A DNA stretch of 60,967 nt, filler included. It is 10 parts of 10 records of this genome, joined end to end, with 100 filler letters (N's around TTAATTAATTAA, not from the genome) between each part and the next. Parts side by side here need not be neighbours in the genome. Positions count along the whole stretch, not along the records: positions 29,743 to 37,604 come from SRR7504441_5348; 9 more parts are not named here. One strand, given 5' to 3'. The translations under genes and the position numbers were made by a program. Positions 3,263 through 54,194 of this stretch are shown piece after piece; within the stretch, counting starts at the first letter, position 1, and each line of letters begins with the position of its first letter. The notes beneath the pieces are model-generated. The model did no database searches. It worked only from the letters and a program-made list of their open reading frames with translations, and was not told the DNA's origin.

Positions 3263-3362
3263 NNNNNNNNNNNNNNNNNNNNNNNNNNNNNNNNNNNNNN
3301 NNNNNNTTAATTAATTAANNNNNNNNNNNNNNNNNNNNNNNNNNNNNNNNNNNNNNNNNNNN
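3263..3362. other. Artificial contig spacer
   Basis: N44-TTAATTAATTAA-N44, stop codons in all six frames. Confidence 0.98.
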
Positions 3363-8732: not shown

Positions 8733-8832
8733 NNNNNNNNNNNNNNNNNNNNNNNNNNNNNNNNNNNNNNNNNNNNTTAATTAATTAANNNNNNNNNNNN
8801 NNNNNNNNNNNNNNNNNNNNNNNNNNNNNNNN
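8733..8832. other. Artificial contig spacer
   Basis: N44-TTAATTAATTAA-N44. Confidence 0.98.
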
Positions 8833-12531: not shown

Positions 12532-12631
12532 NNNNNNNNNNNNNNNNNNNNNNNNNNNNNNNNNNNNNNNNNNNNTTAATTAATTAANNNNNNNNNNNNN
12601 NNNNNNNNNNNNNNNNNNNNNNNNNNNNNNN
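12532..12631. other. Artificial contig spacer
   Basis: N44-TTAATTAATTAA-N44. Confidence 0.98.
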
Positions 12632-14331
12632 CCTCAAGCTCTACTGCGAGTGCTTTGCGGCGGCGACCATGTGTATCGAGCAGTGCAAGTGCCAAGACTG
12701 CCACAATAACGAGTCGCATAGAGAGGAGCGAGACAGGGCTTGCGAGGAGACCGTCCGCAAGAATGCCCGGGCGTTCGAGCCCAAGATCGCTAAGAGCGGC
12801 TCACAGGTCTCTAGTGACCATGCATGTAGCCCCCGCCCGAGCCTTCTGCTCGTGGGTTGATCTGGGCTGCTTGGCAGGCGGACGACCCCTCGCACCGACG
12901 CGGGTGCCGGTGCAAGAAGTCCAACTGCCTCAAGCGGTACTGCGAGTGTTTCAATGGCAAGGTCAAATGCTCAACAGTGTGCAGGTCCGCCTGCCCCGCG
13001 CCCTCTTGCCGGGGCTCATCATGTCTCTTGCAGGTGCATCAATTGCCACAACCTCGCCCCATCTGCCCAGAAAGGAAGGGCCGCCAACAGCGATGGGGAC
13101 GCCGGGGCAAAGGCCGGCGTGGACGGGGCCGTCGCGGGTCCGACGATTGGCGACGCCGAGCAAGTCGACAACGAGCTCGCATTTCCGGAGCAAGCGGGCA
13201 CGGAGGCGGGTATTCCGCTGAGCCCTACCATGACGCCGCTCCTGGCGAGTGCAACTTGGGACATGCAGCAGCCGCACCAGAGCTTCACGGCCGGGGCGTT
13301 CACTTTCTCGCCGCAGCGGGCTGAGGACTTGGCGGGGATGCTTCCTTCGCACATGGCCACGCCCCAGTCGACTCTGAAAGGCGACGACCTGAAGGGCACA
13401 CCCGCATTCTCGCCCGGGCTCAACCCGATCGACTTGGGGGCCGACACGCTCAGCTTCCTGATCTCCCCGGTCAAGGACGCCAGCGGGAGTCCCCTCAAGG
13501 TCTCTCCGCTCAAAGTGCTCGGCTCCCCCCGACCAGCTCGGCCGAACAAGGTGCACCCAGCGCCGCGGAGCCGGCACCGACTGGCTGGCTGCAGGGGATC
13601 CGGCCGATCCAGATGCGAAAGAACTCATCGCCCTCCGAGCGGAGCAACGCGACCGGAAGCTTCCAGATGAAGTCCGTGCGCGAGACGTCCTCGTCTCCCT
13701 CTGTCAAATCGGTCCAGGTCAGCCGAGCGATCCGAGCTCAAAACTGACCGTCCGGATACAGAAGATCGTGGGCAGCTATGGCTTCGCCAGCCCGGCGATT
13801 GGCGCTGTGAACGATCGCGCTATGGTAGATGGCCCGGCCACTGGGCAGATGCCGCTACGGCAGAGGAGCTCGCCGCGGAAGAGGGTGACCGGCTATCGGG
13901 GCGACCGCTGACTGGGGCGCCGTGACAGAACAACCAGTTCATGCCGCCAAAGCCGCCGCGCACCCCCCAGCCGGCAAACTCGCCACTGAAGAAGCGCCGT
14001 CTAGACCAGGTGCGCGACAGCTGGTTGGCTGTCCTGACTGGGTCAGGCTGGCCGCACACCCAACGGACTGAGTCTGCTCTCGTCGCCGCTCGGACTGCGC
14101 GGCGATGTGCCGCGCACCCCCCAGCCGTCACAGGGTGCGGGCTTGCGTGCTCCACAGGCTGACGTGAGTGCTGCAGGGCCGCCCGGTCAAAGCACGCCTA
14201 TCTGCCGTCTTTCGCCCATGTGCACGCGCATTGTGTCCGAAGAGCAGAACGGCCGAAACATCATAGGACCAGATGACAATGCCGATGAGTCACTACACTC
14301 TGGCTCAAAGATCCCTGTAGGATTCGCTTGA
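12632..14331 (+). CDS. LIN54: Tesmin/TSO1/LIN54-family CRC (CXC) domain protein (5' partial)
   Basis: [17 protein letters not shown], hinge [11 protein letters not shown], second [31 protein letters not shown]-rich tail. Confidence 0.85.
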
Positions 14332-15424: not shown

Positions 15425-16418
15425 TCAAGCAGGTGTCAGGCGATAATAGATAGAGGCTCCATTCCCCGGGACTGGTGCTTTGCTCGTCAGCGGTTGGCCT
15501 CCGCTTATGCTCATCACCACTTGATGTGTCATCACATCATGTACTGTGTAATTTCCTGTGGTCGGAACACCCATTTTGGACATGCATGTCTCATCACAAG
15601 TCATAGACTCGGAAGTGGCCTTATTGTTCAAAAAGAGAACTGCAAAGCCTTTGTCGTGAAGCGGCCGCCCAAGGATCAAGTTGGTTGCTTTGATTGGGCC
15701 AGGCGACGGGGCTGCTGCGGCTGTGACACACAGACCGCTCCCAGTGGTGAGCTGCTGTGTTACATTATCGTGCTTCCATGCCTGTGATGCAGACACTGGC
15801 GCTGTGCAGGCCTTCAAAGCCACCATATTGTTGCTGTCCACCGTCGCACACAGATGCCCTGGCAGAGCTGACACCAGCTGGCCGTTGGGTTGCAGCGTAA
15901 AGACTTCATTCGGAAACGGCATGGATGGTGTGGCCTCGCAGCCTTTGCCTGTTGCAGGGCAGCCATCATAGATAATTTGGGTACCGCAGCCTTCCACATT
16001 AAGGCAGACATTCAAGTGCGCATTGTGGATCCGGCCATCCAAGTAATCCAGCAGCCACTTTTGGTCCTCAGGCTCGCCTCCACACTCCTGCACCTTCATC
16101 GGCGCATATTGTTGACCGAGACCATTTTGGGCATCAGTGAAGAGCAAAGCCCCAGGACCCTCAGCGCCGCCATCGACACGAACTGCAGCCTTTCCGAGCG
16201 GATCCTGGTTGATGTTGATGGCCATTTCATTCGAATAGGTGGCCATTACAAACGAGTTGAGTCGATCGAAATCACCCACAAGAAGAATATTGAATGAGAG
16301 GATCGTCCAAAGCGAGAACATAGACACAAACCGATCTTCCGACATGCAGTTGTCACTGTCATGGCAGCCCATCCCTGGAGTAAGCATCAGGGACCCATCA
16401 TTCCAGTATCCTCCAGCT
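15425..16418 (-). CDS. GH27 alpha-galactosidase-like protein with inserted ricin-B (CBM13-like) domain (5' partial)
   Basis: GYWNDGSLM..G, FSLWTIL..GD, AININQDPLG. Ricin-type QKW/QAW and CL repeats precede the C-terminal FAVLFLN segment. Intronless in the visible part. Confidence 0.75.
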
Positions 16419-16518
16419 NNNNNNNNNNNNNNNNNNNNNNNNNNNNNNNNNNNNNNNNNNNNTTAATTAATTAANNNNNNNNNNNNNNNNNNNNNNNNNN
16501 NNNNNNNNNNNNNNNNNN
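16419..16518. other. Artificial contig spacer
   Basis: N44-TTAATTAATTAA-N44. Confidence 0.98.
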
Positions 16519-29642: not shown

Positions 29643-29742
29643 NNNNNNNNNNNNNNNNNNNNNNNNNNNNNNNNNNNNNNNNNNNNTTAATTAATTAANN
29701 NNNNNNNNNNNNNNNNNNNNNNNNNNNNNNNNNNNNNNNNNN
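29643..29742. other. Artificial contig spacer
   Basis: N44-TTAATTAATTAA-N44. Confidence 0.98.
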
Positions 29743-29769
29743 GTTACTAGTACTAGTAGCTAGCGCTAG

Positions 29770-32700
29770 CTAGCTGCCAACGCCCAGTTTATTACGGTCG
29801 CTCAATATTTCTGCGATCTGCTCGCAGCATTGCAACTGACAACCCCACCTCAGCTTGGCGGCTTGCGAGGTGCGCCGGGCCAGGTCACACGCAGTATCGC
29901 CCTCCCTATCTCGCAACAACGGGTCCGCCCGGAGAGCCAGCAGCAGCTCCGCAGCCCGCAGCTGGCCGTCTTTGGCTGCCACGTGCAGTGCAGACCGGCC
30001 TTGGCCATCGATGCAGTTCAGGTCGGCCTTGGCTGCAATCACTCGCCCCGCCACGCTCGCCATCATGTTCTGGTGCGCCTCCCACCCGTCGGATATCCCT
30101 GCCAGCCGCCGCTCGAGGCCCCAAAGCGGCGCCGGGCTCGCCTTCGGGCACAACTGAGCAGACGGTGTGCAGCACAGAAGCTCCAAGCTGGGTCGTGCTG
30201 CTCACCCGCCCACCCGCCTGTTGCACAATCTCGAACACCGCCACCCGCCTGTTGCACCAGGTCAGGCTCGATTGCGGCACAGGGCTGCCTGGCCGGCCGA
30301 TTACACTGGAGCGTCCGGGCGGCTATCTGGATGCAATTCTCGGCCTATCACGCGGTCACTCACTCAACACCGCCGAGTGCGCACCTTGTAGCGCTCGCGG
30401 CCGTGCACGGTGTGTGCAGTGCTCTGATGCACGTCCGCCTGGCTCTGCAGGAGCAAGGTGCAGACCGGCGCATGCGCATTCAGCACAGCCCAGTGCAGCG
30501 CTGATCTGCCGAGGAAGTCCGGATCGTTCAAGCAAGTGATCAGCTCCGGCAACACCACCAGCTGCCTCACGGAGCCCAGGTTCCCTCCCCGCGCCCCAAA
30601 GTGCAAGGCGGTCTGCTGGTTGGCTGTCTTGCGTGCCACAAATTGTTGCGACCCCAGGAGAATGTTCAACACCTCCGCGGATGCTAGCGCTGCGTGGTGT
30701 ATCGGCGTCATGCCCTCCAGGTCTGGATAGCCTGGGTCGGCCTTAGCCGCGACCAGGCTCGCAGCACACGCGGTGTGCCCGTTGTGCGCCGCTGCATGCA
30801 GCGCAGTCGCCCCACCTGCACCCAGCTTCCCCGCATTCCGTTTGCTCTAGCTCACTGTGATTCGATGCGCTCGGGTCAGCGCTCGAGCCGAGCAGCAAGT
30901 CCACAATCTCTGCGTGCCCCGTGCGCGCTGCAACCCTGAGCGCTGCTCCGAGCTCCTGCAGTCATCGTCAGCCCTGGCCCGAGCTGGTGGCACCGCGGTG
31001 TCCGTTCCAGTCCGCAGGAGCTCTGCACACTCAGCACAGTTGCCCTGCTGCGCAGCCAACTCTATCACACTCTGGGCACACGTGTCAGCACCCCTCGGCC
31101 CGTGGGCTGTACCAATCCTGCGGCCGGTTGCGCGGTCTGCGCTGAGGCGTTTACCGCCCCTTCCAGCCCCCATCCACTCAGCAGTGCCGCAAACTCGTCT
31201 AGGCGCGGGTTGGCCATCAGCAACGCAGTCGCTGCAACTGACCTGCCACGCTGTCTCTGGCCACAGGAGCCCAGCCAGCCACCTGTCAGTGAGTTGCGCC
31301 GTCTGCAGCTGAGCGCCCAGCAGTCGAGAGATCACGTGCAGCGCTCGGATAGAATCTCCTCCGAGTGTCACGAAATCGTCTGTCGGCCCAGGCAGCACCC
31401 CAAGCACTCTGTGCCACTCCTGCCAGCGCAGCTTACAAGCCGCCCTGCGCGCGCACACTACCGCTGCTACGAGCTGCTCCAACGGCGACAGCGCCCTACC
31501 TCGGGCTGGAGCCTGGGGCTGCTCAGCCAAGCTAGCCAGCTGTCTGCGGTCGATCTTCTGACTGGGCGTGAGTGGCATCTGAGTGAGCTCAACAAACCTG
31601 GCTGGCACCATGTAACTTGGGAGCTGCCCGGCGCAGTGCTGCTCCACCCTGCTGCACAACCCGCGGTCCGGCCGCTCGCCGTCGTGTGCATACCGACAGT
31701 TGACTCCCCAATCGCATCCCCGAGGACTCCTGTAGAAGCGGCATACGCGCTTTGGCGGGCTGCTCAGTGCGGATCCGGCCGTGCCCGCTGTGCAGAACGC
31801 CACCAGTTGGGCCGCCCGTTCGGTAAGCACCACGGCGCACAGTCTGGCCAGTCCGCTCGCCTGGATACAAGCCTCGAGCTCGTCCAAGTCCACTCTCATG
31901 CCCCGCAGCTTGACACACCGGTCCGCCCGCCCACACAGCAGCAGCTCACCCGCCCGCCCGCGCACCGCCAAGTCGCCTGTCCGCAGCATCCTGCTCCGGG
32001 ACCGGCCGGCCGGGTGGAACGGGTTGCGCGGAATAGCCGGCTGGATCAGCCCGTCAGGGAGCCGGTCACACATGAGTTCTCCGCTGTAGTACAGCTCGCC
32101 CTGCTCACCCGGTGAAACCATCGGGCTCAGGTCCGGTCCGAGCAGGTACAGCTCGCCTGGCCGACCGGTCAGACCGCTGTGGATGCGGTTGCGACCTGAT
32201 TTGAACGGCAATCCGATGTCCCGGGCCGCGTCGGCGAGCTGGTCCGGGCTAGGCAGTTGCGAGTGCACCTGTGACCAGGCTCGCTGCCGTCATTGCACGG
32301 AGCGCCTTAGCCGAGACACTAGACGTACACTCGCTTTGCCCGTAGCAGTTGATCACGGCAGCCTGACCCCAGCTGGCGCGGCCCGGCGGCCGCCTCGCCT
32401 TGGCCCAGCCCACCAGCAGCCCCGTCGGCATAGGCTCTCCACTGGAGACAACCACCCGGATCCCGGCCGCCACAGTGGGATCGACCAGCCCGATCGCCTG
32501 CCCGGCACTGGTGGTGAGTCCGTTAGAAGGCACACCGTCGGGGTGCCGATCAGGTGGGTGGCTGCATGCTCTGCCAGCAGCCTAGACAGCCGGCCACCAA
32601 CAACCGTCTGCTTCGACGGGAGCGACAACCCGCACCCGGCGTGCAAGCTGGCCAGGAGCGAGGCGAAGTGGTCCACGAAGCTCACCGAGACCAGCGAGCC

Positions 32701-33255
32701 GAGCACCGCCTCGCGCGAGAGCATCGCCAGCTCGCAGAACTCTCGGACGAAGGCCCGGAGCGCCGCGGCCGGCACCGACAGCAGCTTGGGTCGGCCAGTG
32801 GACCCGCTGGTGCTCATCACGACCGGCGCCACCGGCAATCCAGGCACTGGCCGGCCGGCTGCCGTTAGATCAATCGGCAGCGCTGGGAGCTGCGGGAACA
32901 GCGTGCGGGCCCAGAGAGTATGCTTCGGCTCGATCAGCAGCCCGGTCACCTCGGCGTGGGCGCAGACGAATCGAATCCTGTCGGCGGGCAGGTCGGATGG
33001 CAGCGGCGCGTACCCTCGTCCAGCCTGCAGCGCCGCCAGGATCCCCACCACCGCCTCGGGTGACCGGTCAGCCACCAGCCCGACCGGCCCCACTCCGCCG
33101 GCCAGCCGCGCCGCCAGACTGCCCGCCGCCCGCCGGAGCCCGGCCTGGCTGAAGCAGCGCGTCTCGTCCCGGACCAGCGCCCCGTCGGCCGGAGCGGCGA
33201 CCGCCGGCTGCAGCCCAAACCGGACAGGGTCCAGCCCTCGCCAGTGAAGCTGCAT
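29770..33255 (-). CDS. NRPS-like protein: adenylation domain (with CCCH zinc-finger insertion), phosphopantetheine carrier, ankyrin repeats
   Basis: A3 STSGSTGRPK, A5 NCYGQSE, A7 RTGDL, A8 GRADRCVKLRG, LPSYMVP, A10 PSQKIDR. Carrier DDFVTLGGDS. Ankyrins TPIHHAA, TALHFGA, SALHWAV, SALHVAA. Confidence 0.82.
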
Positions 33256-33315
33256 GCTCCACGGCGCGTTCCGTTACGGCCCTCGGATCGTGGCTCGAGG
33301 CTGCAGCGGGCGTCA

Positions 33316-34305
33316 ATGGTTGGGATCGTGGATCGTGTGCTCGGCTTCTTCGGGTATGGCAGCGGCGGCGGGCAGAAGCGCGGGCGGGACGAGCCGGCCG
33401 CCGAGGCTGAGGTGTCCCCCAAGAAGCCCAAGCCAGCTTCAGCACCGGCTGGCGGGTTTACAGCGCGCGGGGTAGCGGATTCGGCTTCGGGAGGCAAATT
33501 CTGGGAGTGCACAGTGGAGGGCCGCATGCTCACCACCCGCTGGGGCAAGCTGGGCAGCGCAGGCCGGAGCCAGAGCAAGCAGCTGGCTGACGAGGCCGCG
33601 GCGATCCTCGAGGCTGAAAAGCTGGTAGCGACCAAAGCGAGAGGCGGGTACACCATGGACGACGGCTTCTGGATCGAGCCGGCCGATCAGAAGAAGAGCG
33701 GCGCCGGCCAGAAGAAGAGCGGTGGGCCCAGGCTGTATCTGGCCGATCCGTCGGTGTATGACGGGAGTTACAACGGCGAAGAATGGGACGAAGGGCTGCT
33801 GGAGGCTGACGGGCAGCCCATCGCGGGCTTCGGGAGCTTTGCGGGCGACCCTGAAGCGATCAGGATCGCAAAAGCTCTCGGGTCGGACCTGCGAGGCATC
33901 AGTATCAATAACGGCGCCGAGAACGACTTTCAGTGGGAGCCTCTTATTGTTGCGAGTCCGGGTAAGCCTGGCAAGTCCGGGGCCCGAGCAGCTCTGAAAG
34001 CCGCCCTGGGGATGCAGCCCTCTGCCAAGCCAACGGTCAGTGATTGCGGTTGGATCAAACGCTCCGAGTTGTTCTGGCGGCGGACCCGGAACGAGTCGCC
34101 TGGGGAGCTGGAAGAGCTGGACGAGGGTCGCTTGGGTGATGCAGACAGGTGCAAGCAGGCCACAAATTTGATGGCCGATTCTCTTAGCCAGCACGTGCAC
34201 ATGAAGTTTGGGGACTACGACGTGGTTGTGGGACCGATCTTCTACGGAGGCTACACTGAAGCTGGCAGCTTGGTGGGCGTGATGGGAACTCGGGTTTACA
34301 CATGA
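33316..34305 (+). CDS. WGR-domain protein with uncharacterised C-terminal domain
   Basis: Intronless. KFWECTVEG..TTRWGKLG..AEKLVATKARGGY matches the WGR domain pattern. Confidence 0.78.
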   Translation: MVGIVDRVLGFFGYGSGGGQKRGRDEPAAEAEVSPKKPKPASAPAGGFTARGVADSASGGKFWECTVEGRMLTTRWGKLGSAGRSQSKQLADEAAAILEAEKLVATKARGGYTMDDGFWIEPADQKKSGAGQKKSGGPRLYLADPSVYDGSYNGEEWDEGLLEADGQPIAGFGSFAGDPEAIRIAKALGSDLRGISINNGAENDFQWEPLIVASPGKPGKSGARAALKAALGMQPSAKPTVSDCGWIKRSELFWRRTRNESPGELEELDEGRLGDADRCKQATNLMADSLSQHVHMKFGDYDVVVGPIFYGGYTEAGSLVGVMGTRVYT

Positions 34306-34497
34306 TCAATCAATCATTACTTGTGATTGTGATTGCACGTGTGACTTAGGTGCGACTCCATGCAATGAGCACTATGCATGTACTTCAATGCGGTGACACT
34401 CGAGGCTGTGTTTAGAGTAAGGAAGCAACCGTGGCCAACACTAGAAAATCTAAATGTCTTGATTAACGATTGTACCAAATCAGTTTACGATCTTTAG

Positions 34498-36918
34498 TTA
34501 TTGTAACAAGTTTACATGTAGAGAGCTCGATCCATTTAGATCCATTAACCCATAACTGAGATCTAGCTCGGTATTCGGAACGGCCTCATCGAATTTGGTG
34601 TCTTGATTCTCTTGAATCTCGAGCTCGAGCTTGAAATCGACTGCACTGACCTCCCCTGCGGTGTCTTGGACCTCCAGCCTGACCTCCTCTGCAGTGTTTT
34701 GAGCCCCCTGAAGCTCGGGCTTGACTGCACTGATGTCCCCTGCGGTGTCCTGGACCTCAAGCTTGACCTCCTCTGCAGCGGCTTGAACCTCTGTCTCGAC
34801 CAGGTCCTCGCCCTCATCCGTAATCGCCAGTATCGCTGCCAGCATCCCCCCCATGGTTGCCTCACACGGGCCTGTGCAATCTACCGGCTCATCCCTCACT
34901 GGAATCCCTGTCTTGTCGCAATGGTTGCACCCCTGATCTGTCACCCGCTGCAGGCACCACAGGCACTCGCTCGCCGGCAGATCGTCCAAATCCAGCCAGT
35001 CACACAGCTCCGGGCTTAGACCAAAGCTCGGCCAATACGGCTGTAGCTCCAGGTGCAGCACCGACGGCCCTGCCCTGCGCACCAGCCCACCCAGCCTGCA
35101 GCTGTCTTCGAGCGCCACCACGCGCGCTGCTGCCTCCGCAGTTGGGTACATGCCGAGGTATTTGATCTTAGAGCCGGCTGAGACGTAGGCCATGAACTTG
35201 CCGGACGAGTTGGGCCCCGACACGCCCTTGTAGCCCGATTTACTCCTAGAAGACCGCTCCAGCACCAGACTGGACTCGGGCTCCCAGGTGGGCACCACCT
35301 GCGGGATTGCGACCAGCGCCCGACTGTAGGCCGGCGCGATCTGCTCGAGTGCGACCATTGGCTGGCTGCAGTGCTCGCCTTGGCCGTGGCTGCCAACGAC
35401 TGGTTTCAGTTGGACCTGGCTGCAGTGCTGCCCCTCCAACTTGACACTGGTTGTCGGCGGCTCAGTTTGAATAACCCGCATCTCGACCGCAGGCGCAGGC
35501 TCGGATCTGGGCGGAGGCATGAGTGGAGCAATCTTTGCCTGCTCGGCGGCCCTCGCCTTCACTGCCTCCTGCTCAGCAGCAGCTGCCCTTGTCTCCTCCT
35601 CCTCCTGTGCCCGTGCTATTTCCTCGTCTATTGCGTCGTCCGAAAGCTCCTGGGGCACGTCGCATGAATTGTATTTAGGATCAGCGTTGTTTTTGCATCG
35701 CCAGACCTCCGGCACTGCGCCTCTGAAACGGCGCCACTGCACCCCGAGATGAGACCAATCAGCTGCCTGTGGGCGGCACCTTATCGCAGCTGTCACATTG
35801 GACCCACCCGGCCGCCCCGCTGTCTTCGGGCGGGGCTTGCCCGCGCTCCTTGGATATCTTGCGCATGTTGTCTGCAGTGCGGTGAACCTGACAGAAGAAA
35901 GTTCTATCGGCTGTGAATTCCCAGCCATCCGCGTGCGCCAAGGCACAGCCATAGTGGAACGATGCTCGACAGTGCTTTGCCCTGCAGCCCTGGTCACGCC
36001 CAGCGGCGGTCGGGCAGCGCACCAGCAGCCGATGGTGGCGCCTGGCAGGTGGCAGTGCAAGCACCGGAGTGCCAGCCCACGCCTGAGGCATGGCTGCACC
36101 TCGTGATAGTCTATAGGCGCCTCGCTCGCATCCCACCGACTCGCCCACACTTCTGGTGACATCTCGACGCTGCCCCAGCCCGGTGAGCCCGCGAGCCGGC
36201 CACCGCCACACCATAGTCTGTGCACCCAGATCACCCGTTCTCCCATTGCAGTCACTCCGTTGGCGTGCGCACAGTCAGCGAAAGGCGGCCGCACGAATGA
36301 GGATTCAGGGCGCTCCGGTCGCTGGCAGAGCACGCAGCACTGGCCGGCCGGGGGCTCGACTGGACGGCACAGGCGCCGCGCCACACTCGACTCTTCGCGG
36401 GCGCGCTTGCGAGGCCGTTGCTGGGAGGGCGGTGGGGCGGGTGTGGCCGGCTGGACGGTGCAGTACTGGGTGGCCGGTTGGGTGGGTATGACCGCACGGA
36501 GGTCGAGGTCAGCCTGTGTGTAGACGATTGAAGTGCCGGCCACTAGTTTGGCGTGTTCGGTCAGCCCTGGATATCGCTGCTGGTTGATAGCAAGCAGCCC
36601 ACTCAGCTCAGTCGGCAGCTTGAGCGCTATTTGTCCGAGCGTCTCATCCTCAGCGGCCTTGTACTCCCGAAGCGAGTCCAGAAGCGCCGTGGTCCGCAAA
36701 AACTGGACCGGGCCAGCTGGGGCAGGCCGGGTGGGCACTACAGCCGGCAGCGCGGCTTGCCACGGATAGGCTGTAGGCGGACCATTAGCTGGGACCATTG
36801 GTGTGCCGACGGCCTGCGCCATGGGACCCACTGCTGGCCAGCCAGCCGCAGTAGTCACCCGAACAGCGTCCTGTGACCCGGGCGTCTCCAAAATTGAATT
36901 CAACGACAATTTGCGCAT
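34498..36918 (-). CDS. Chromatin/DNA-binding protein: LysM-like, extended PHD, CW zinc finger and AP2-like domains
   Basis: ETLGQIA..LLAIN..YPGL..GT; CVLC..WVHRL..CLHCHLPGATIGC..FHYGC..FFCQVH; WVQCDSCDKWRR..WRCKNN..CDVPQE; SGYKGV..YLGMYPTAEAAAR. Short introns join the frames. Confidence 0.78.
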   Translation of the reverse strand: MRKLSLNSILETPGSQDAVRVTTAAGWPAVGPMAQAVGTPMVPANGPPTAYPWQAALPAVVPTRPAPAGPVQFLRTTALLDSLREYKAAEDETLGQIALKLPTELSGLLAINQQRYPGLTEHAKLVAGTSIVYTQADLDLRAVIPTQPATQYCTVQPATPAPPPSQQRPRKRAREESSVARRLCRPVEPPAGQCCVLCQRPERPESSFVRPPFADCAHANGVTAMGERVIWVHRLWCGGGRLAGSPGWGSVEMSPEVWASRWDASEAPIDYHEVQPCLRRGLALRCLHCHLPGATIGCWCAARPPLGVTRAAGQSTVEHRSTMAVPWRTRMAGNSQPIELSSVRFTALQTTCARYPRSAGKPRPKTAGRPGGSNVTAAIRCRPQAADWSHLGVQWRRFRGAVPEVWRCKNNADPKYNSCDVPQELSDDAIDEEIARAQEEEETRAAAAEQEAVKARAAEQAKIAPLMPPPRSEPAPAVEMRVIQTEPPTTSVKLEGQHCSQVQLKPVVGSHGQGEHCSQPMVALEQIAPAYSRALVAIPQVVPTWEPESSLVLERSSRSKSGYKGVSGPNSSGKFMAYVSAGSKIKYLGMYPTAEAAARVVALEDSCRLGGLVRRAGPSVLHLELQPYWPSFGLSPELCDWLDLDDLPASECLWCLQRVTDQGCNHCDKTGIPVRDEPVDCTGPCEATMGGMLAAILAITDEGEDLVETEVQAAAEEVKLEVQDTAGDISAVKPELQGAQNTAEEVRLEVQDTAGEVSAVDFKLELEIQENQDTKFDEAVPNTELDLSYGLMDLNGSSSLHVNLLQ
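34640..34785 (-). repeat. 84-nt (28-codon) imperfect tandem duplication within the coding tail
   Basis: AEEVKLEVQDTAGDISAV and AEEVRLEVQDTAGEVSAV, 28 codons apart. Confidence 0.75.
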
Positions 36919-37128
36919 GCAGTCACTCTCAGGGAACTCCCCGCTGCTAATTAGTCAGACCCTAGTCAGACCCCAGATCCTAGGCACGGCGAGTAGGAGC
37001 ATTGGGGGCCGCTCAACAAGCACTCGCTAGATATTTACAATAAACCTATACCTGCTTTGGTAGGCCGGTCAACCGGTTCTAGCTTTACGATACAATCATG
37101 CTAGACGAGTACTTACTACAATGTTTGA

Positions 37129-37604
37129 TCATCGGATCCAACTCGCCGGGAGAAGCGTACCAAACAGAAAGTGCTGGATCACCGGCAGCTTGCCGAGCAC
37201 CTGGCCCCCGCTGCCCGCCGCCGTGCGGCCGGCCGACCTCCGCCAAGTACATCTTTTTGAACCCCTCACACACCTTGGGCCAGCCTTGTTGCGGCGGGAT
37301 CTGGGATATGCTAAACAGCACCGGCGAGTGCTCATGGAACGGCCCGCCTCGTTTGACCTGCGACTGGCTGGCCCTGCCTGCGGAGGCTGCTAGTTGCCTT
37401 GTAGATGAACTGTATGGCGTCTAGGTACATATAGTCTGCCGAGTGCTGCTCTAAGACGCTCCGGTCGTGCACATCGGCCGGACTGATCTGGTCCCTCCCC
37501 CCGAGCATCTGAGAGGCGCCCCACAGGAACGGCAGGAAGTGGTAGTCGTCCAAGCCCCACCTGGCCCTCAAGTGAGCGGGAAGCCCGCAGACGGCACGCA
37601 CACG
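37129..37604 (-). CDS. PTPA: Phosphotyrosyl phosphatase activator (PP2A activator), 5' partial
   Basis: WGLDDYHFLPFLWGASQ, K..GPFHEHSP, KMYLAEVLGKLPVIQHFLFG. Introns 37358-37397 (GC-AG) and 37201-37237. Confidence 0.93.
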
Positions 37605-37704
37605 NNNNNNNNNNNNNNNNNNNNNNNNNNNNNNNNNNNNNNNNNNNNTTAATTAATTAANNNNNNNNNNNNNNNNNNNNNNNNNNNNNNNNNNNNNNNN
37701 NNNN
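37605..37704. other. Artificial contig spacer
   Basis: N44-TTAATTAATTAA-N44. Confidence 0.98.
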
Positions 37705-40722: not shown

Positions 40723-40822
40723 NNNNNNNNNNNNNNNNNNNNNNNNNNNNNNNNNNNNNNNNNNNNTTAATTAATTAANNNNNNNNNNNNNNNNNNNNNN
40801 NNNNNNNNNNNNNNNNNNNNNN
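40723..40822. other. Artificial contig spacer
   Basis: N44-TTAATTAATTAA-N44. Confidence 0.98.
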
Positions 40823-44506: not shown

Positions 44507-44606
44507 NNNNNNNNNNNNNNNNNNNNNNNNNNNNNNNNNNNNNNNNNNNNTTAATTAATTAANNNNNNNNNNNNNNNNNNNNNNNNNNNNNNNNNNNNNN
44601 NNNNNN
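44507..44606. other. Artificial contig spacer
   Basis: N44-TTAATTAATTAA-N44. Confidence 0.98.
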
Positions 44607-44695: not shown

Positions 44696-47600
44696 ATGGC
44701 CAAGCCAACAAAGTGGTGGAGTTCCAGGGGGTGGAGCTTGCTGGGGGTGGCGGTACTCGCGGTGCTCCTGAGCGGGTCGGAGGGCGACGAGTTGGTCACC
44801 TTGGACGACCAGCCGGCACGCCGAGGCACCACCATCTCGCTCGATCGGGTCTCGGTCTCCCCGGCCCTCCGCCGCCGACCGAGCTTTTCTGGACAGGGCA
44901 TGTGCCTTGGGGCCGACCCCGGCGTGGAGGAGGGCGCGCCGGTGGTGATCCGGAGCTGCCACGGACCGGCGCTCTCGTGGGTGGTCCGCACGGAGGCACC
45001 CCGGCCAGTCGGCGGTCGATTCACCAGCGAGGGGGCAGGACGGGATGGTCCAGAGCGTCGACGAACCGGTGCACCAAGCCTCTGCCGGCCGGCCACTCAC
45101 CCGGTGCCCACGTAGGAGCTCTGCCTGGCTCTCCGCATCGACGGCGGCTTTTCGCCGGGCCAACCGGCGCTGCTGTTGAGTTGCCGGGCCCGGGCCGGGA
45201 GCTTGTGGGATGTAACGGAGACCGGCATCAAGCTGCGGGCCAACCCGAGTCTAGCGCTCGGCGCCCAGAAGGCCAGCGACGGCCAGCGGGTGGCGCTGGT
45301 GCCGGTGGATCGAGTGCTGCATGCGTTGAAAACTCGCGTGCATGCAAACCACATTTCTTCCGTCAAAGAGAGGTCGGTCGCGGCGCCGCCCAGCGATCAA
45401 CGGGGAGCCTAGGTACGCACCACCGGTGGATGGCCGGATCGGCTCCAACTTCGGCGGGTGCCCAGAGGTCTGTAAATCCGTCTGTCAAGAGGACGAGCAG
45501 GTGTGTCGTGCCCTTGTGTCGGGTGAGCCTCGCTTGACAGGACTGCCCGTGTTCGGGCGAGCTTTGCTACGTGCCGGCCGAGGTGGCGTTCCAGTGGTGC
45601 GACAAGCTGAGTCAGTGTTCCGCCGTCTCGTCCAACCCTCAGCTGCAGCCCGGCTGGTCTTTGTTAGGCCAAAGCCCTATGCTAGCCGAGACGCCTGGTG
45701 CGACTCCTGCCAGGCCAGCCGCTCACGGCCGGCAGGAACATGGTCCACCCGAGCCAAGATCAGCCCAGTCCCGCCGGCCGGTGGCCAGATCAGGCTGACG
45801 GGCGGCGCGGCGCTCTTTTGTGTGGGCATTGCTGGAAACCTTGCAGCGCAGAGCCGACTGGTGGGCGCCGCTGCAGGCGGCCGTGCTGAGTCTGAGGGCA
45901 GAAACTGACGCCGTGCGCACCGGCCCAGGCGCAGATGTGGGTGGCACTCAACGGTCAGATACGGCCGGGCGGTGACCAGACGCTTTGCGTTGGGGTCATT
46001 GCCGGCCAACCGGAACTGACCAAATGCTCTTCTAATAGCCGCGCACAGCTCTGGCGCGTGGCTGCGAGAGGCCAGATCAAGCAGGCTGAGCGTGGGCTGT
46101 GCCTGACGGTTAAGGATGGGAAGGTTGCTGACTCCAGTCCCTTGGTGGCGGATCGGTGTGGCAGCAAAGAGCAGAGAAGCCAGCTGTGGCAAATGAGCGC
46201 TGAGCCTGTAGGGACCGTACCCAGCCCGACCGGTGCCACTGCACCGGCGACTCAGGGCAAGCCAACCAGGCTGCCTGAGGATCAGTCTGCAGATCAGGCC
46301 GATACTGCTCTGGAGATGGAGCTGGACCGAATCAAGGCCGCAAACCGTACAAAGCAGCGGCTGGGGGTGCTGGAGAACCGCACTCAAGGGCTCCAGGCCG
46401 AGGCGAGTGGGCTAGTTGACCAGGCACGTGCCGGCTCAGCAGAGGCTAAGAGGCAGATGCTGAAGCGAGAGACGCATGTGAAGTCTTTGCGAAGAGAGCT
46501 CGACCAGCTTTGGGCCAGATACTCGGCCGCACAGACTAATTTGACGCTACTGGGCGAGTCCAGGGCAAAGCTCAAGCCAAAGTGGGTGACGGCGGTGCGA
46601 GCTGTTACCAAGTACAAGCGGGCTGTGAAGCAGGCCGAACGGAGGCACGATGAGGCGCTGGCGGACGAGGCCAAGGCTAAGGACAAGGTCTCCAGGCTGG
46701 CGCTGGCGCTTAAACAAGTCAAACACGAGCAGAACGCGACCCTTGTCGCTCTGAAGCAGAGGGAAGCGACCACGGTAGGCCGTATGAAGCAAGCCGAAGC
46801 GCTGGTTCACAAGCGGCGCTCAAGGATGCGCAAAGCTGTCAAGGCGTGGAAGGCCAAGCTGCTGAGGGCTGGAGGGATCGCCGCCAGCGCCGAGCGCGCG
46901 TTCGTCCGCGATGAAGCGGGGATGGATGCTGGGGCATCCAACGCGGCGGAACAGGAGGAGCGAGCAGTCGAGGCTGAGCTTGAGATCGAGCGTGAGAACA
47001 CTCATATGATCACAGCGGCCAAGCGGGATGAGGAGAGGCTGAGGCTGGTCCAGGCGCCGACCGCAGCCGGTGCCGGTTGAGTGTGGGGCAGGGGCCGGTG
47101 ATGATGGAGAAGGGGCGGGCAAAAGTGAAACAATTGCAAGGCGAAGTTGCAAACGCCCAAGCAGAATGGCACGCGGCCCAGGAGCTGGTGCAGCTGGCCT
47201 CTCAGCAGCAAAAGCAGCAGATGGAGAGTGCGCGCAAGCGGCTTGAGGAGGTGCAGCTGCTGTATAAATCCAAGGCTGACCAGGGTGAGCTGGCTTGTGC
47301 GGGCTTTGCTGAGGTGTGTGGTCAGCTCATCACGCGAAGGTACTCAAGGACAGTTTGAGGCGGAAGCTCAGCGCGCTCAAGGACCAGGTTGGTAAGGCCG
47401 AGCAAGACAAGAGGGACATTCGCGACCAGGCCTCCGATGACGGATCAATCTCCAATATGCAGAGAGGGATGAGCGAAATGGCGACTATGGACACACAGCT
47501 GACTATGGCGATTGACCGCAAGATGAAGCTCAAAGCGCTGGAGCGTCGGCTGGTGCTCAGCGCAAGCAGGATGCAGGCTGAACACAGGCTTGCTCAATCG

Positions 47601-54094: not shown

Positions 54095-54194
54095 NNNNNN
54101 NNNNNNNNNNNNNNNNNNNNNNNNNNNNNNNNNNNNNNTTAATTAATTAANNNNNNNNNNNNNNNNNNNNNNNNNNNNNNNNNNNNNNNNNNNN
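54095..54194. other. Artificial contig spacer
   Basis: N44-TTAATTAATTAA-N44. Confidence 0.98.

What the first reader, a model, noticed from the sequence alone, without database searches (positions are those of the whole stretch)
29770..33255. NRPS-like A-T-ankyrin protein with a CCCH zinc finger inside the adenylation domain
An exact C-x8-C-x5-C-x3-H finger (CRFYRSPRGCDWGVNCRYAH, 31684-31743) is inserted in frame in the small A subdomain, between A8 and LPSYMVP/A10. An intact carrier (GGDS) and ankyrin repeats follow, with no C, TE or R domain. Known stand-alone A-T-X enzymes end in a catalytic or propeller unit (Lys2, Ebony, AASDH). CCCH fingers usually bind RNA and ankyrins bind proteins. 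Inference: the enzyme may deliver an activated acyl or amino group to a protein or RNP partner, or be regulated by RNA.
Basis: partly seen in the sequence, partly recalled or inferred. Interest (0 to 1): 0.78.

Follow-up and report, generated by a model that had tools for sequence, protein, structure and literature searches.

The report
Zinc finger inside an acid-activating enzyme
A gene from an uncultured marine eukaryote encodes an enzyme that should activate a small acid and hold it on its own carrier arm, with an RNA-type zinc finger built into a surface loop and a protein-docking tail; I found this combination nowhere else, but so far it is known from DNA alone.

Summary
The gene lies on the minus strand of a 7.9-kb metagenomic contig (window 29743-37604). 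Eleven exons joined by ten short GT...CAG introns (26-122 nt) give one open 988-codon frame. It encodes an NRPS-type adenylation domain with motifs a1-a10 in order, a carrier domain with its serine, and about nine ankyrin repeats. I found no C, TE or R domain.

The C-x8-C-x5-C-x3-H finger sits exactly at 31684-31743. It passes Pfam zf-CCCH_4 (31 bits, E 2e-7) and lies in a 36-residue insertion between motifs a8 and a9. That loop is where known "interrupted" A domains carry methyltransferases.

Differences from other marine metagenomes run 17 synonymous to 6 non-synonymous, so the gene is under constraint.

Word-based protein searches, two metagenome scans, a degenerate DNA scan of prokaryote genomes and literature searches found no other A domain with such a finger.

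Open points:
- No RNA data exist.
- An in-frame 108-nt GT...CAG stretch could splice the finger out (my odds about 15%).
- No orthologue could be fetched.

What the finger does (RNA or partner binding) is inference. Verdict: a real new variant of a known kind, of moderate interest.

The parts
29770..33255 (-). Whole gene: 11 exons and 10 introns, giving a 988-codon open frame plus stop
   Evidence: Gene model built: 2967 nt of coding sequence with no internal stop. It is collinear with bacterial A-T proteins.
32534..33255 (-). Exon 1: N-terminus and motifs a1-a4. The a3 P-loop is at 32817-32785 and a4 at 32679-32665.
   Evidence: PF00501 E 4.8e-22. TIGR01733 E 8e-24. Alignment.
32508..32533 (-). 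Intron 1, 26 nt, GT...CAG, with a CTAAC branch-like site. It could instead be a 1-nt assembly error.
   Evidence: It restores the frame and the motif spacing. No independent contig covers it.
32318..32507 (-). Exon 2: up to motif a5 (32350-32330)
32269..32317 (-). Intron 2, 49 nt
   Evidence: It restores the frame. Two metagenome contigs cover it with no indel (records 7 and 11).
32196..32268 (-). Exon 3
32157..32195 (-). Intron 2b, 39 nt, in frame, with CTGAC 14 nt from its 3' end
   Evidence: Its removal restores the canonical spacing before a6. Both of the 2 population differences inside it would be non-synonymous if it were read.
31462..32156 (-). Exon 4 (695 nt, the longest): a6 (32100-32077), a7 (31986-31966), a8 (31932-31873), the finger, a9, a10 and the linker to the carrier domain
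   Evidence: TIGR01733 E 2.5e-15. 55 solved NRPS and ANL sequences match at E<=1e-5.
31660..31767 (-). 36-residue insertion (model residues 459-494) relative to bacterial A domains. It is made of a Gly/Ser/Pro-rich lead-in, the finger and a charged tail.
   Evidence: Insert state in the profile alignment. MAFFT alignment. LgrA spacing is 23 residues against 58 here.
31684..31743 (-). CCCH zinc finger, C-x8-C-x5-C-x3-H, model residues 467-486
   Evidence: Pattern scan. PF18044 at 31.0 bits, E 2.1e-7. Closest solved fingers are ZMAT5 (E 2.9e-4), TIS11d/TTP, Roquin and PAN3.
31639..31746 (-). Candidate cryptic in-frame intron (108 nt, GT...CAG) that would excise residues 466-501, including the finger
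   Evidence: Listed. It has no CTRAY branch-like site. The profile score is 168 bits without it and 158 bits with it, so homology cannot decide.
31603..31623 (-). Motif a9
   Evidence: Aligned to the a9 motif of LgrA and bacterial homologues
31546..31563 (-). Motif a10, with the catalytic lysine at 31557-31555 (residue 529)
   Evidence: Aligned to the NGK-DR motif of homologues
31420..31461 (-). Intron Ip, 42 nt, in frame, at the start of the carrier domain
   Evidence: Retaining it costs 16 bits against a profile of bacterial homologues. One metagenome contig covers it with no indel (record 6).
31283..31419 (-). Exon 5: core of the carrier (PCP) domain. The phosphopantetheine serine is at 31353-31351 (residue 583).
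   Evidence: PF00550 at 23.2 bits, above the cut-off of 20.8. Alignment.
31243..31282 (-). Intron 3, 40 nt
   Evidence: It restores the frame and the last carrier helices. It carries 3 population differences.
31113..31242 (-). Exon 6: end of the carrier domain and the linker
31072..31112 (-). Intron 4, 41 nt, with CTGAC 13 nt from its 3' end
30994..31071 (-). Exon 7: first ankyrin repeat
30956..30993 (-). Intron 5, 38 nt, with a CTGAC branch-like site
30856..30955 (-). Exon 8: ankyrin repeat
30816..30855 (-). Intron 6, 40 nt
30371..30815 (-). Exon 9: four to five ankyrin repeats
   Evidence: Ank_2 E 1.1e-19 and Ank E 1e-18
30249..30370 (-). Intron 7, 122 nt, with CTGAC 12 nt from its 3' end. 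This is the least certain intron: a 17-nt exact repeat offers a second acceptor 31 nt downstream.
   Evidence: The repeat is shown.
30152..30248 (-). Exon 10: ankyrin repeat
   Evidence: The 33-residue repeat period is kept.
30070..30151 (-). Intron 8, 82 nt
   Evidence: One metagenome contig covers it with no indel (record 1).
29770..30069 (-). Exon 11: last ankyrin repeats (the repeat region ends near 29872), a short tail and the TAG stop
   Evidence: Ank_4 E 7e-12 and Ank_5 E 2.5e-11
29743..29772 (.). Palindromic tail at the contig end, overlapping the stop codon
   Evidence: Read directly. No other run covers it.

Best explanation
This is an intact, intron-rich nuclear gene of an uncultured marine eukaryote. 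It encodes a stand-alone loading enzyme.

Inferred mechanism:
- An NRPS-type adenylation domain uses ATP to activate a small carboxylic or amino acid.
- The domain transfers that acid to the phosphopantetheine arm on Ser583 of the protein's own carrier domain.
- Because there is no condensation, thioesterase or reductase domain, the thioester must be handed to a separate acceptor. The roughly nine ankyrin repeats most likely recruit it.

The finger:
- The CCCH finger is translated.
- It hangs on flexible Gly/Ser/Pro and charged linkers in the a8-a9 loop of the mobile C-terminal subdomain. This is the same permissive surface loop that carries methyltransferase, oxidase or ketoreductase domains in interrupted A domains.
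- It should therefore not disturb adenylation.
- It acts as an accessory binding module. RNA is the most likely ligand, a partner protein less likely. It would localise or gate the enzyme rather than take part in catalysis.

Shown: gene structure, domain order, the place and quality of the finger, and sequence constraint on the gene.
Inferred: activity, substrate class, translation of the finger, and its ligand.
For: Gene integrity:
- Ten GT...CAG introns give one 988-codon frame.
- That frame is collinear from a1 to a10 and through the carrier domain with bacterial A-T proteins. A profile built from 80 of the 261 bacterial homologue segments collected scores it at 158 bits.
- The a3 P-loop, the a10 lysine and the carrier serine are all present.
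- TIGR01733 is the best NCBIfam model for both large exons.

The finger:
- PF18044 scores above its cut-off.
- The finger aligns to solved RNA-binding CCCH fingers.
- The strict pattern occurs 2 times in the window against 0.045 expected.

Constraint:
- 17 synonymous and 6 non-synonymous differences fall in exons among the 33 differences listed.
- No indel is seen where contigs of other runs cross 9 of the 10 introns.

Permissive loop:
- Passages of PMC8341866 and PMC11355689 say inserts sit mostly between a8 and a9.
- PMC11355689 also says engineered inserts keep adenylation.

Precedent for an enzyme with CCCH fingers:
- The second Pfam hit is the DUS3L finger family.

Precedent for A-T plus a non-catalytic repeat domain:
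- AASDH/ACSF4-U26 activates beta-alanine (passage of PMC4882622).
Against: - There is no RNA evidence that the finger is in the mature mRNA.
- An in-frame 108-nt GT...CAG stretch would remove it and restore the canonical loop length. The profile score then rises by 10 bits.
- The full codon-usage score of the insertion looks intron-like: -1.2, against exon windows at 18.0 +/- 4.8. This test is confounded by the Cys/Arg/His-rich composition and was not held out. The cleaner synonymous-codon test has no power: 0.17, against 2.90 +/- 3.54.
- No orthologue with the finger was found, so its conservation is unknown.
- A single CCCH finger usually binds RNA weakly (recalled).
- At a4 the canonical Asp column holds Val, with Asp one residue later. 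The substrate class therefore cannot be read.
- The differences come from contigs of depth under 5, and some may be errors.
- The C-terminus abuts the contig end.
Confidence: 0.55

Rival explanations
1. The finger-coding stretch is removed by splicing, always or in some isoforms. The mature enzyme is then an ordinary A-T-ankyrin protein, and the finger is a recently inserted coding fragment tolerated as an intron.
For: - In-frame GT...AG candidates lie at 31746-31639 (108 nt, CAG end) and 31746-31642 (105 nt).
- Excision restores the usual a8-a9 spacing and raises the profile score from 158 to 168-170 bits.
- The gene has two other in-frame introns (I2b, Ip) and introns of 82 and 122 nt.
- The codon-usage score of the insertion is intron-like (confounded).
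Against: - An intron has no reason to encode, in the host frame, a finger that passes a curated Pfam cut-off at E 2e-7. The strict pattern is expected 0.045 times per 61 kb in six frames.
- The candidate has no CTRAY branch-like site. By my reading of the intron ends printed, about five of the ten introns have a CTRAC site 11-15 nt from the 3' end.
- The eight small introns are 26-49 nt long.
- The candidate's borders are shifted relative to the insertion seen in the alignment. They cut about 8 residues into the helix before a9.
Confidence: 0.15
2. The finger is translated but has no ligand of its own. It is a lineage-specific, nearly neutral or merely structural zinc knuckle in a loop that tolerates insertions, and the enzyme works like its finger-less relatives.
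For: - No orthologue with the finger was found in any search.
- The same protein has other lineage-specific loop insertions: about 11 residues before a5 and about 10 in the carrier domain.
- The a8-a9 loop tolerates foreign inserts (PMC11355689 passages).
- There is only one finger, not a tandem pair.
Against: - The finger keeps the full consensus. This includes the aromatic residues that stack on bases in solved RNA complexes (that role is recalled). It aligns to TIS11d/TTP and ZMAT5.
- A decaying neutral insert would be expected to lose this consensus.
Confidence: 0.25
3. The locus is a pseudogene or an assembly chimera, and the apparent introns are frameshift errors.
For: - The genomic frame is broken eight times.
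- Intron 1 is only 26 nt and is not covered by any other run.
- The contig is metagenomic and ends in a palindromic tail.
Against: - All ten breaks or insertions are bounded by GT...CAG, and their removal gives one 988-codon frame.
- Contigs from other runs carry the same sequence with no indels across 9 of the 10 introns.
- Differences run 17 synonymous to 6 non-synonymous.
- 3 of the 4 differences inside the in-frame introns would change the residue if read.
Confidence: 0.03

Closest known systems
Interrupted adenylation domains (for example TioS A-M-A and KtzH; families 1-7 of Lundy et al. 2020, PMC8341866)
   Same: A foreign module is inserted in frame between motifs a8 and a9 of an otherwise complete NRPS A domain, on the C-terminal subdomain (passages).
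   Different: - Known inserts are whole catalytic domains (methyltransferase, also oxidase or ketoreductase) of hundreds of residues that modify the tethered substrate. Here the insert is 36 residues with one non-catalytic CCCH finger.
- Known cases are bacterial or fungal assembly-line modules. This one is a stand-alone eukaryotic A-T protein.
- The word 'zinc' occurs 0 times in PMC8341866.
AASDH / ACSF4-U26 (vertebrate A-T-PQQ-repeat protein)
   Same: It is a stand-alone NRPS-like A-T didomain followed by a non-catalytic repeat scaffold instead of a C, TE or R domain. It activates a small amino acid, beta-alanine, and its acceptor is still unknown (PMC4882622 passage; PMC10531068 passages).
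   Different: - Its tail is a beta-propeller-type repeat, not ankyrin.
- No finger in its A domain is known to me (recalled).
- Orthology was not tested.
A-T-ankyrin-armadillo proteins of Ostreococcus and related picoalgae
   Same: The layout is the same (A, T, then ankyrin repeats) and the size is similar (about 1025 codons there, 988 here). The setting is also marine picoeukaryotes.
   Different: - Those notes mention armadillo repeats and no finger. Here Pfam finds only ankyrin in the tail.
- Their sequences could not be fetched. Word look-ups found no look-alike. Orthology, and the state of their a8-a9 loop, are therefore untested.
Ebony, and Lys2 or carboxylic acid reductases (A-T-X enzymes)
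   Same: One A-T pair loads a single acid for a single downstream step.
   Different: They end in a catalytic unit: an amine-selecting domain in Ebony and a reductase in Lys2 or CAR (recalled). TIGR03443, the Lys2 model, matches exon 4 only at E 4.8e-13, weaker than the NRPS models.
RNA-modifying enzymes with CCCH fingers (METTL3; DUS3L)
   Same: CCCH fingers attached to an enzyme bring in its RNA substrate. [quoted passage not shown] The DUS3L finger family is the second Pfam hit (E 0.0017, below its cut-off).
   Different: Those fingers lie outside the catalytic fold and come in pairs. Their enzymes are methyltransferases or reductases, not adenylating enzymes.

Membership tests
NRPS-type adenylation domain (PF00501 / TIGR01733) | Profile match | tested here: met
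   PF00501 E 4.8e-22, 78.7 bits against a cut-off of 29.9. TIGR01733 E 8e-24 and 2.5e-15 on two exons; each is a piece, so each scores below the full-length cut-off.
NRPS-type adenylation domain (PF00501 / TIGR01733) | Core motifs a1-a10 present and in order, including the a3 P-loop and the a10 lysine (motif numbering recalled) | tested here: met
   The spliced model is collinear with five bacterial A-T proteins and with a profile built from 80 segments.
NRPS-type adenylation domain (PF00501 / TIGR01733) | Asp in motif a4 that anchors the alpha-amino group of amino-acid substrates (recalled) | tested here: inconclusive
   In the gap-free alignment the Asp column holds Val and an Asp follows one residue later. 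The substrate class cannot be read.
NRPS-type adenylation domain (PF00501 / TIGR01733) | ATP-dependent adenylation of a substrate | not testable with these tools
   This needs an ATP-PPi exchange assay.
Carrier protein (PP-binding, PF00550) | Profile match above the curated cut-off, and the conserved serine | tested here: met
   Exon 5 alone scores 23.2 bits against a cut-off of 20.8. The unspliced ORF scored only 18.6. The serine aligns with that of bacterial carriers.
CCCH zinc finger | C-x8-C-x5-C-x3-H spacing | tested here: met
   Exact match at 31684-31743.
CCCH zinc finger | Curated profile match | tested here: met
   PF18044 zf-CCCH_4 scores 31.0 bits against a cut-off of 24.6. The classic PF00642 scores only 14.8 bits against 20.5, which is not met.
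CCCH zinc finger | Zinc binding and RNA binding | not testable with these tools
A wet assay is needed.
CCCH zinc finger | Presence in the mature mRNA and protein | not testable with these tools
   No RNA holder was listed. A cryptic in-frame intron candidate exists.
Interrupted adenylation domains | Insert located between conserved A motifs (a2-a3, a6-a7 or a8-a9) | tested here: met
   The insert lies between a8 and a9.
Interrupted adenylation domains | The insert is the catalytic part of another domain (M, Ox, KR) that acts on the tethered substrate | tested here: not met
   The insert is 36 residues, and its only family is a zinc finger. I therefore do not file it as a member, only as the same architectural trick.
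Ankyrin repeat proteins | Tandem 33-residue repeats that match the Ank profiles | tested here: met
   Ank_2 E 1.1e-19 on exon 9 and Ank_4 E 7e-12 on exon 11. I count about nine repeats in the model.
Picoalgal A-T-ankyrin-armadillo proteins (earlier notes) | Sequence orthology, and armadillo repeats after the ankyrins | not tested
   The sequences could not be fetched. No ARM family appears in the tail exons. No look-alike turned up by word look-up.

The most novel reading that the evidence does not exclude
The finger aims a carrier-protein-based loading enzyme at RNA. The A-T unit makes an acyl or aminoacyl thioester. The CCCH finger and the ankyrin solenoid hold an RNA or RNP. The cargo is then transferred onto the RNA or onto an RNA-bound protein. 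This would be a non-ribosomal, tRNA-synthetase-independent route for acylating RNA or RNP components.
Probability: 0.06. Interest if true: 0.9.

Novelty: new variant of a known kind. Interest (0 to 1): 0.55.

Why it matters
- Every insert described so far in an adenylation domain is a catalytic tailoring domain. A nucleic-acid-type zinc finger in the same a8-a9 loop would show that evolution also uses this loop to add a targeting or regulatory module.
- It would link an NRPS-like loading enzyme to RNA or RNP biology for the first time.
- It adds a case to the small, functionally unsolved group of eukaryotic A-T enzymes that end in a repeat scaffold, such as AASDH and the picoalgal A-T-ankyrin proteins. 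Their acceptors are unknown.
- For enzyme engineers, it is a natural example of a very small, non-catalytic insert at the preferred insertion site.
- The value is limited. There is one sequence, from a metagenome, with no transcript, no orthologue and no structure.

Tried and rejected
- Whole genome: none is held for this window.
- RNA evidence: no RNA holder was listed. The four runs laid are DNA contigs only.
- Orthologues:
  - The full-library phmmer listed 150 of 150 giant multi-module synthetases (4,109-7,864 aa), which says nothing about the finger.
  - The word search for longer proteins found 935 hits among 8000 candidates. None of the 120 listed carries a CCCH family in its precomputed Pfam list.
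  - Near-length search on residues 125-250: 1 weak hit among 866 candidates.
  - Longer-length search on residues 155-232: 9 candidates, none at E<=10.
  - Metagenome scans: 599 and 89 pattern matches, none confirmed.
  - ESM Atlas: only generic AMP-binding_C clusters.
  - Earlier-findings look-ups by sequence: nothing.
- Degenerate DNA pattern for a CCCH finger 11-21 residues upstream of an a9-like motif, run over 185,579 prokaryote species genomes: 19 matches. None of the 19 had a8 and a10 motifs in frame, and 9 of the 19 had stops. This covers only CTN and TAC codon choices.
- Codon usage as a test of exon against intron:
  - The full codon score is confounded by composition.
  - The synonymous-choice score has no power.
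- Homology profile as a test of retention against excision: it favours excision by 10 bits, which is what any insertion costs.
Alignment A1 stands unused, so no fold search was run.
- Antisense and other-frame ORFs over the gene: 0 of the 7 tested have a family.
- Rfam and tRNA scans of the contig: nothing.
- Literature:
  - 'adenylation domain' + 'ankyrin' + 'CCCH': 0 papers.
  - 'adenylation domain' + 'CCCH': 4 papers, unrelated by title.
  - 'NRPS-like' + 'ankyrin repeat' + 'adenylation': 3 fungal genome papers, by listing only.
  - Four-term search including 'zinc finger': 11 papers, none relevant by title.
  - Supplements were not opened.
I worked out the motif coordinates by hand instead.
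- Rejected alternative model: a 51-nt in-frame intron 3 with no intron 4. It loses the last carrier helices that my model keeps. I judged this by reading the frames.


Full report
**Setting**

The window is not one molecule. Nine linkers (44 N, TTAATTAATTAA, 44 N) join ten contigs. The finding lies on the piece 29743-37604, which is 7.9 kb long with about 66-68% G+C over the gene. No whole genome is held for it.

ORFs on the other pieces match kinesin, RabGAP-TBC, ubiquitin hydrolase, bestrophin and similar families. The bin is therefore eukaryotic.

Short contigs 95-100% alike occur in four runs of four studies, labelled seawater, marine or aquatic metagenome. One of them may be the source sample.

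**The observation**

- On the minus strand, the ORF pieces carry AMP-binding (E 4.8e-22), zf-CCCH_4 (25.5 bits, cut-off 24.6), a partial PP-binding match, a partial AMP-binding_C match, and ankyrin repeats.
- The strict C-x8-C-x5-C-x3-H pattern sits at 31684-31743. It occurs twice in the whole window in six frames, against 0.045 expected from 200 block shuffles.
- On a 49-residue piece the Pfam match rises to 31.0 bits, E 2.1e-7. Weaker matches go to the DUS3L finger, zf_CCCH_4 and the classic zf-CCCH model; the last is below its cut-off.
- Among solved structures, the closest sequences are the CCCH fingers of ZMAT5 (E 2.9e-4), a C3H1 protein, TIS11d, TTP, Roquin and PAN3.

**Gene structure**

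The frame changes eight times in the DNA. Each change is bridged by a short GT...CAG element, and two further in-frame elements of the same kind interrupt conserved motifs.

- Removing ten such introns (26, 49, 39, 42, 40, 41, 38, 40, 122 and 82 nt) gives one frame of 988 codons, from the ATG at 33255 to the TAG at 29770-29772.
- By my reading of the intron ends printed, about five of the ten have a CTRAC-like site 11-15 nt before the 3' end.
- The spliced protein is collinear with five bacterial A-T proteins from a1 to a10 and through the carrier domain. It scores 158 bits against a profile built from 80 of the 261 bacterial segments collected.
- Keeping intron Ip costs 16 bits.
- Contigs from other runs cross nine of the ten introns with no indel. 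Only the 26-nt intron 1 lacks cover, so it may instead be a 1-nt assembly error.

I looked at the 33 single-letter differences listed.

- 17 are synonymous and 6 non-synonymous in exons, and 7 fall in introns 1-6.
- Of the remaining three, two lie in what later became intron 7 and one in exon 10, which I did not classify.
- Of the 4 differences inside the two in-frame introns, 3 would change the residue if those introns were read.
- These contigs have depth under 5, so some differences may be errors.

Taken together, this is a live gene, not a pseudogene. The ankyrin repeats start about 20 residues after the carrier domain in the same frame, so they are part of the same protein.

**Domains**

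- Both large exons match the amino-acid adenylation model TIGR01733 best.
- The a3 P-loop (32817-32785), a8 (31932-31873), a9 (31623-31603), and a10 with its lysine (31557-31555) are present.
- The carrier exon alone passes the PP-binding cut-off, at 23.2 bits against 20.8. Its serine is at 31353-31351.
- About nine ankyrin repeats fill 31071-29872.
- No condensation, thioesterase, reductase or armadillo family appears.
- At a4, the column that usually holds the amino-anchoring Asp holds Val, with an Asp one residue later. I cannot say whether the substrate is an alpha-amino acid. The motif numbering and the role of this Asp are recalled knowledge.

**Where the finger sits**

- Against solved LgrA, the stretch from the end of the a8 block to the helix before a9 is 23 residues. 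Here it is 58.
- The profile alignment places a 36-residue insert state at model residues 459-494 (31767-31660). It consists of a Gly/Ser/Pro-rich lead-in, the finger (467-486) and a charged tail.
- This a8-a9 loop is the commonest site of interrupted adenylation domains. Passages of PMC8341866 and PMC11355689 say that methyltransferase, oxidase and ketoreductase domains are found there. PMC11355689 adds that engineered inserts leave adenylation intact.
- Both papers speak only of catalytic inserts. 'Zinc' occurs 0 times in PMC8341866.

**Is the finger translated?**

This is the main open point. No intron flanks it; it lies inside the longest exon (695 nt). However, one search lists in-frame GT...AG pairs that would remove it whole: 31746-31639 (108 nt, CAG end), 31746-31642 (105 nt), and two of 147-150 nt.

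- Excising 105-108 nt restores the usual spacing and raises the profile score to 168-170 bits. The 147-150-nt versions lower it to 150-152 bits.
- A gain of 10 bits is what removing any insertion gives, so this test does not decide.
- The full codon score of the insertion looks intron-like (-1.2, against 18.0 +/- 4.8). That test is confounded by the finger's composition and was not held out.
- The synonymous-codon test has no power (0.17, against 2.90 +/- 3.54; 18% of held-out exon windows score lower).
- The candidates have no CTRAY site.
- The 108-nt one cuts about 8 residues into the helix that aligns with the conserved helix before a9.

The decisive argument for translation is that the stretch encodes, in the host frame, a finger that passes a curated cut-off at E 2e-7. 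I put about 15% on splicing-out, always or in some isoforms. No RNA holder was listed, so I could not test it.

**Is it unique?**

I found no relative that carries the finger.

- The full-library search was swamped by giant synthetases.
- The three word-based searches found bacterial NRPS at about 30-35% identity with no CCCH family in their Pfam lists, one weak finger-less hit, and nothing.
- Two metagenome scans confirmed nothing.
- The Atlas gave generic clusters only.
- A degenerate DNA pattern for a CCCH finger shortly before an a9-like motif hit 19 places in the prokaryote genome set, none of them in an A domain.
- Four literature searches found no description.

'Not found' is therefore weak evidence.

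Earlier notes of this scan describe A-T-ankyrin-armadillo proteins of about 1025 codons in Ostreococcus, conserved in related picoalgae. That makes the A-T-ankyrin layout itself not new. I could not fetch those sequences to see their a8-a9 loop.

**How it most likely works**

Shown:
- A complete A domain and carrier domain.
- No release domain.
- A repeat tail.
- A canonical CCCH finger in a permissive surface loop.
- Sequence constraint on the gene.

Inferred:
- The enzyme adenylates a small acid, loads it on its own arm, and needs a partner to take it. The ankyrin repeats recruit that partner.
- The finger adds a second binding function without touching catalysis. RNA is the most likely ligand, given the families it resembles and the precedent of METTL3, whose CCCH fingers are needed for activity (PMC10915109 passage).

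The layout parallels AASDH/ACSF4-U26, a beta-alanine-activating A-T enzyme with a non-catalytic repeat tail (PMC4882622 passage).

Rivals:
- The finger is spliced out (0.15).
- The finger is a neutral or structural knuckle (0.25).
- The locus is a pseudogene or an artefact (0.03).

**Verdict**

This is a real gene and a real finger-coding insert, at the classical insertion loop of an adenylation domain. It is a new variant of known kinds: interrupted A domains, and stand-alone A-T-repeat enzymes.

Interest is moderate. An NRPS specialist would be surprised by a non-catalytic, RNA-type insert. But there is one sequence, no transcript, no orthologue and no structure.

Noticed in passing
window 3263-3362, 8733-8832, 12532-12631, 16419-16518, 29643-29742, 37605-37704, 40723-40822, 44507-44606, 54095-54194: The window is ten separate contigs joined by artificial linkers (44 N, TTAATTAATTAA, 44 N). 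G+C ranges from 0.48 to 0.68 between pieces. Neighbourhood across a linker means nothing, and the bin may be mixed.
   Followed up: partly
window 29743-29772: The contig ends in two short perfect palindromes rich in TAG and TAA, and the gene's stop codon is part of them. This could be a natural 3' end or an assembly artefact. No other run covers it, so the C-terminus is not certain.
   Followed up: partly
window 33256-33315 and 33316-34305 (+): A gene with a WGR domain (E 5.7e-13) starts head-to-head only 60 nt from the ATG of the A-T-ankyrin gene. This implies a very compact genome or overlapping 5' ends. WGR domains are otherwise known from poly(ADP-ribose) polymerases (recalled).
   Followed up: partly
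window 34498-36954 (-): The upstream 806-aa ORF has a zf-CW match below its cut-off (E 6.7e-5) and a faint AP2 match (E 0.09). Another frame at 35762-36274 (-) matches a PHD-like finger (E 1e-5). It is probably a multi-exon chromatin-reader gene with the same kind of short introns.
   Followed up: no
window 30210-30226 and 30241-30257: An exact 17-nt direct repeat, 31 nt apart, straddles the acceptor of intron 7. It reads as the same peptide in two frames. It offers a second, frame-shifting acceptor and makes this the least certain intron.
   Followed up: partly
window 32508-30816 (introns 1-6): Eight introns fall in a narrow class of 26-49 nt. All are GT...CAG, several have CTRAC 11-15 nt from the 3' end, and they occur about once per 100-700 nt of coding sequence. 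Such small introns in 66% G+C DNA are unusual and may help place the organism.
   Followed up: partly
window 12645-12704 (+): This is the only other strict C-x8-C-x5-C-x3-H string in the window. It lies in a Cys-rich ORF on another contig, and that ORF matched no Pfam family at E<=1e-5.
   Followed up: no
window 15428-16417 (-) and 45896-47077 (+): Two ORFs on different contigs match ricin-type beta-trefoil lectin domains (E 2.5e-10 and 3.6e-11).
   Followed up: no
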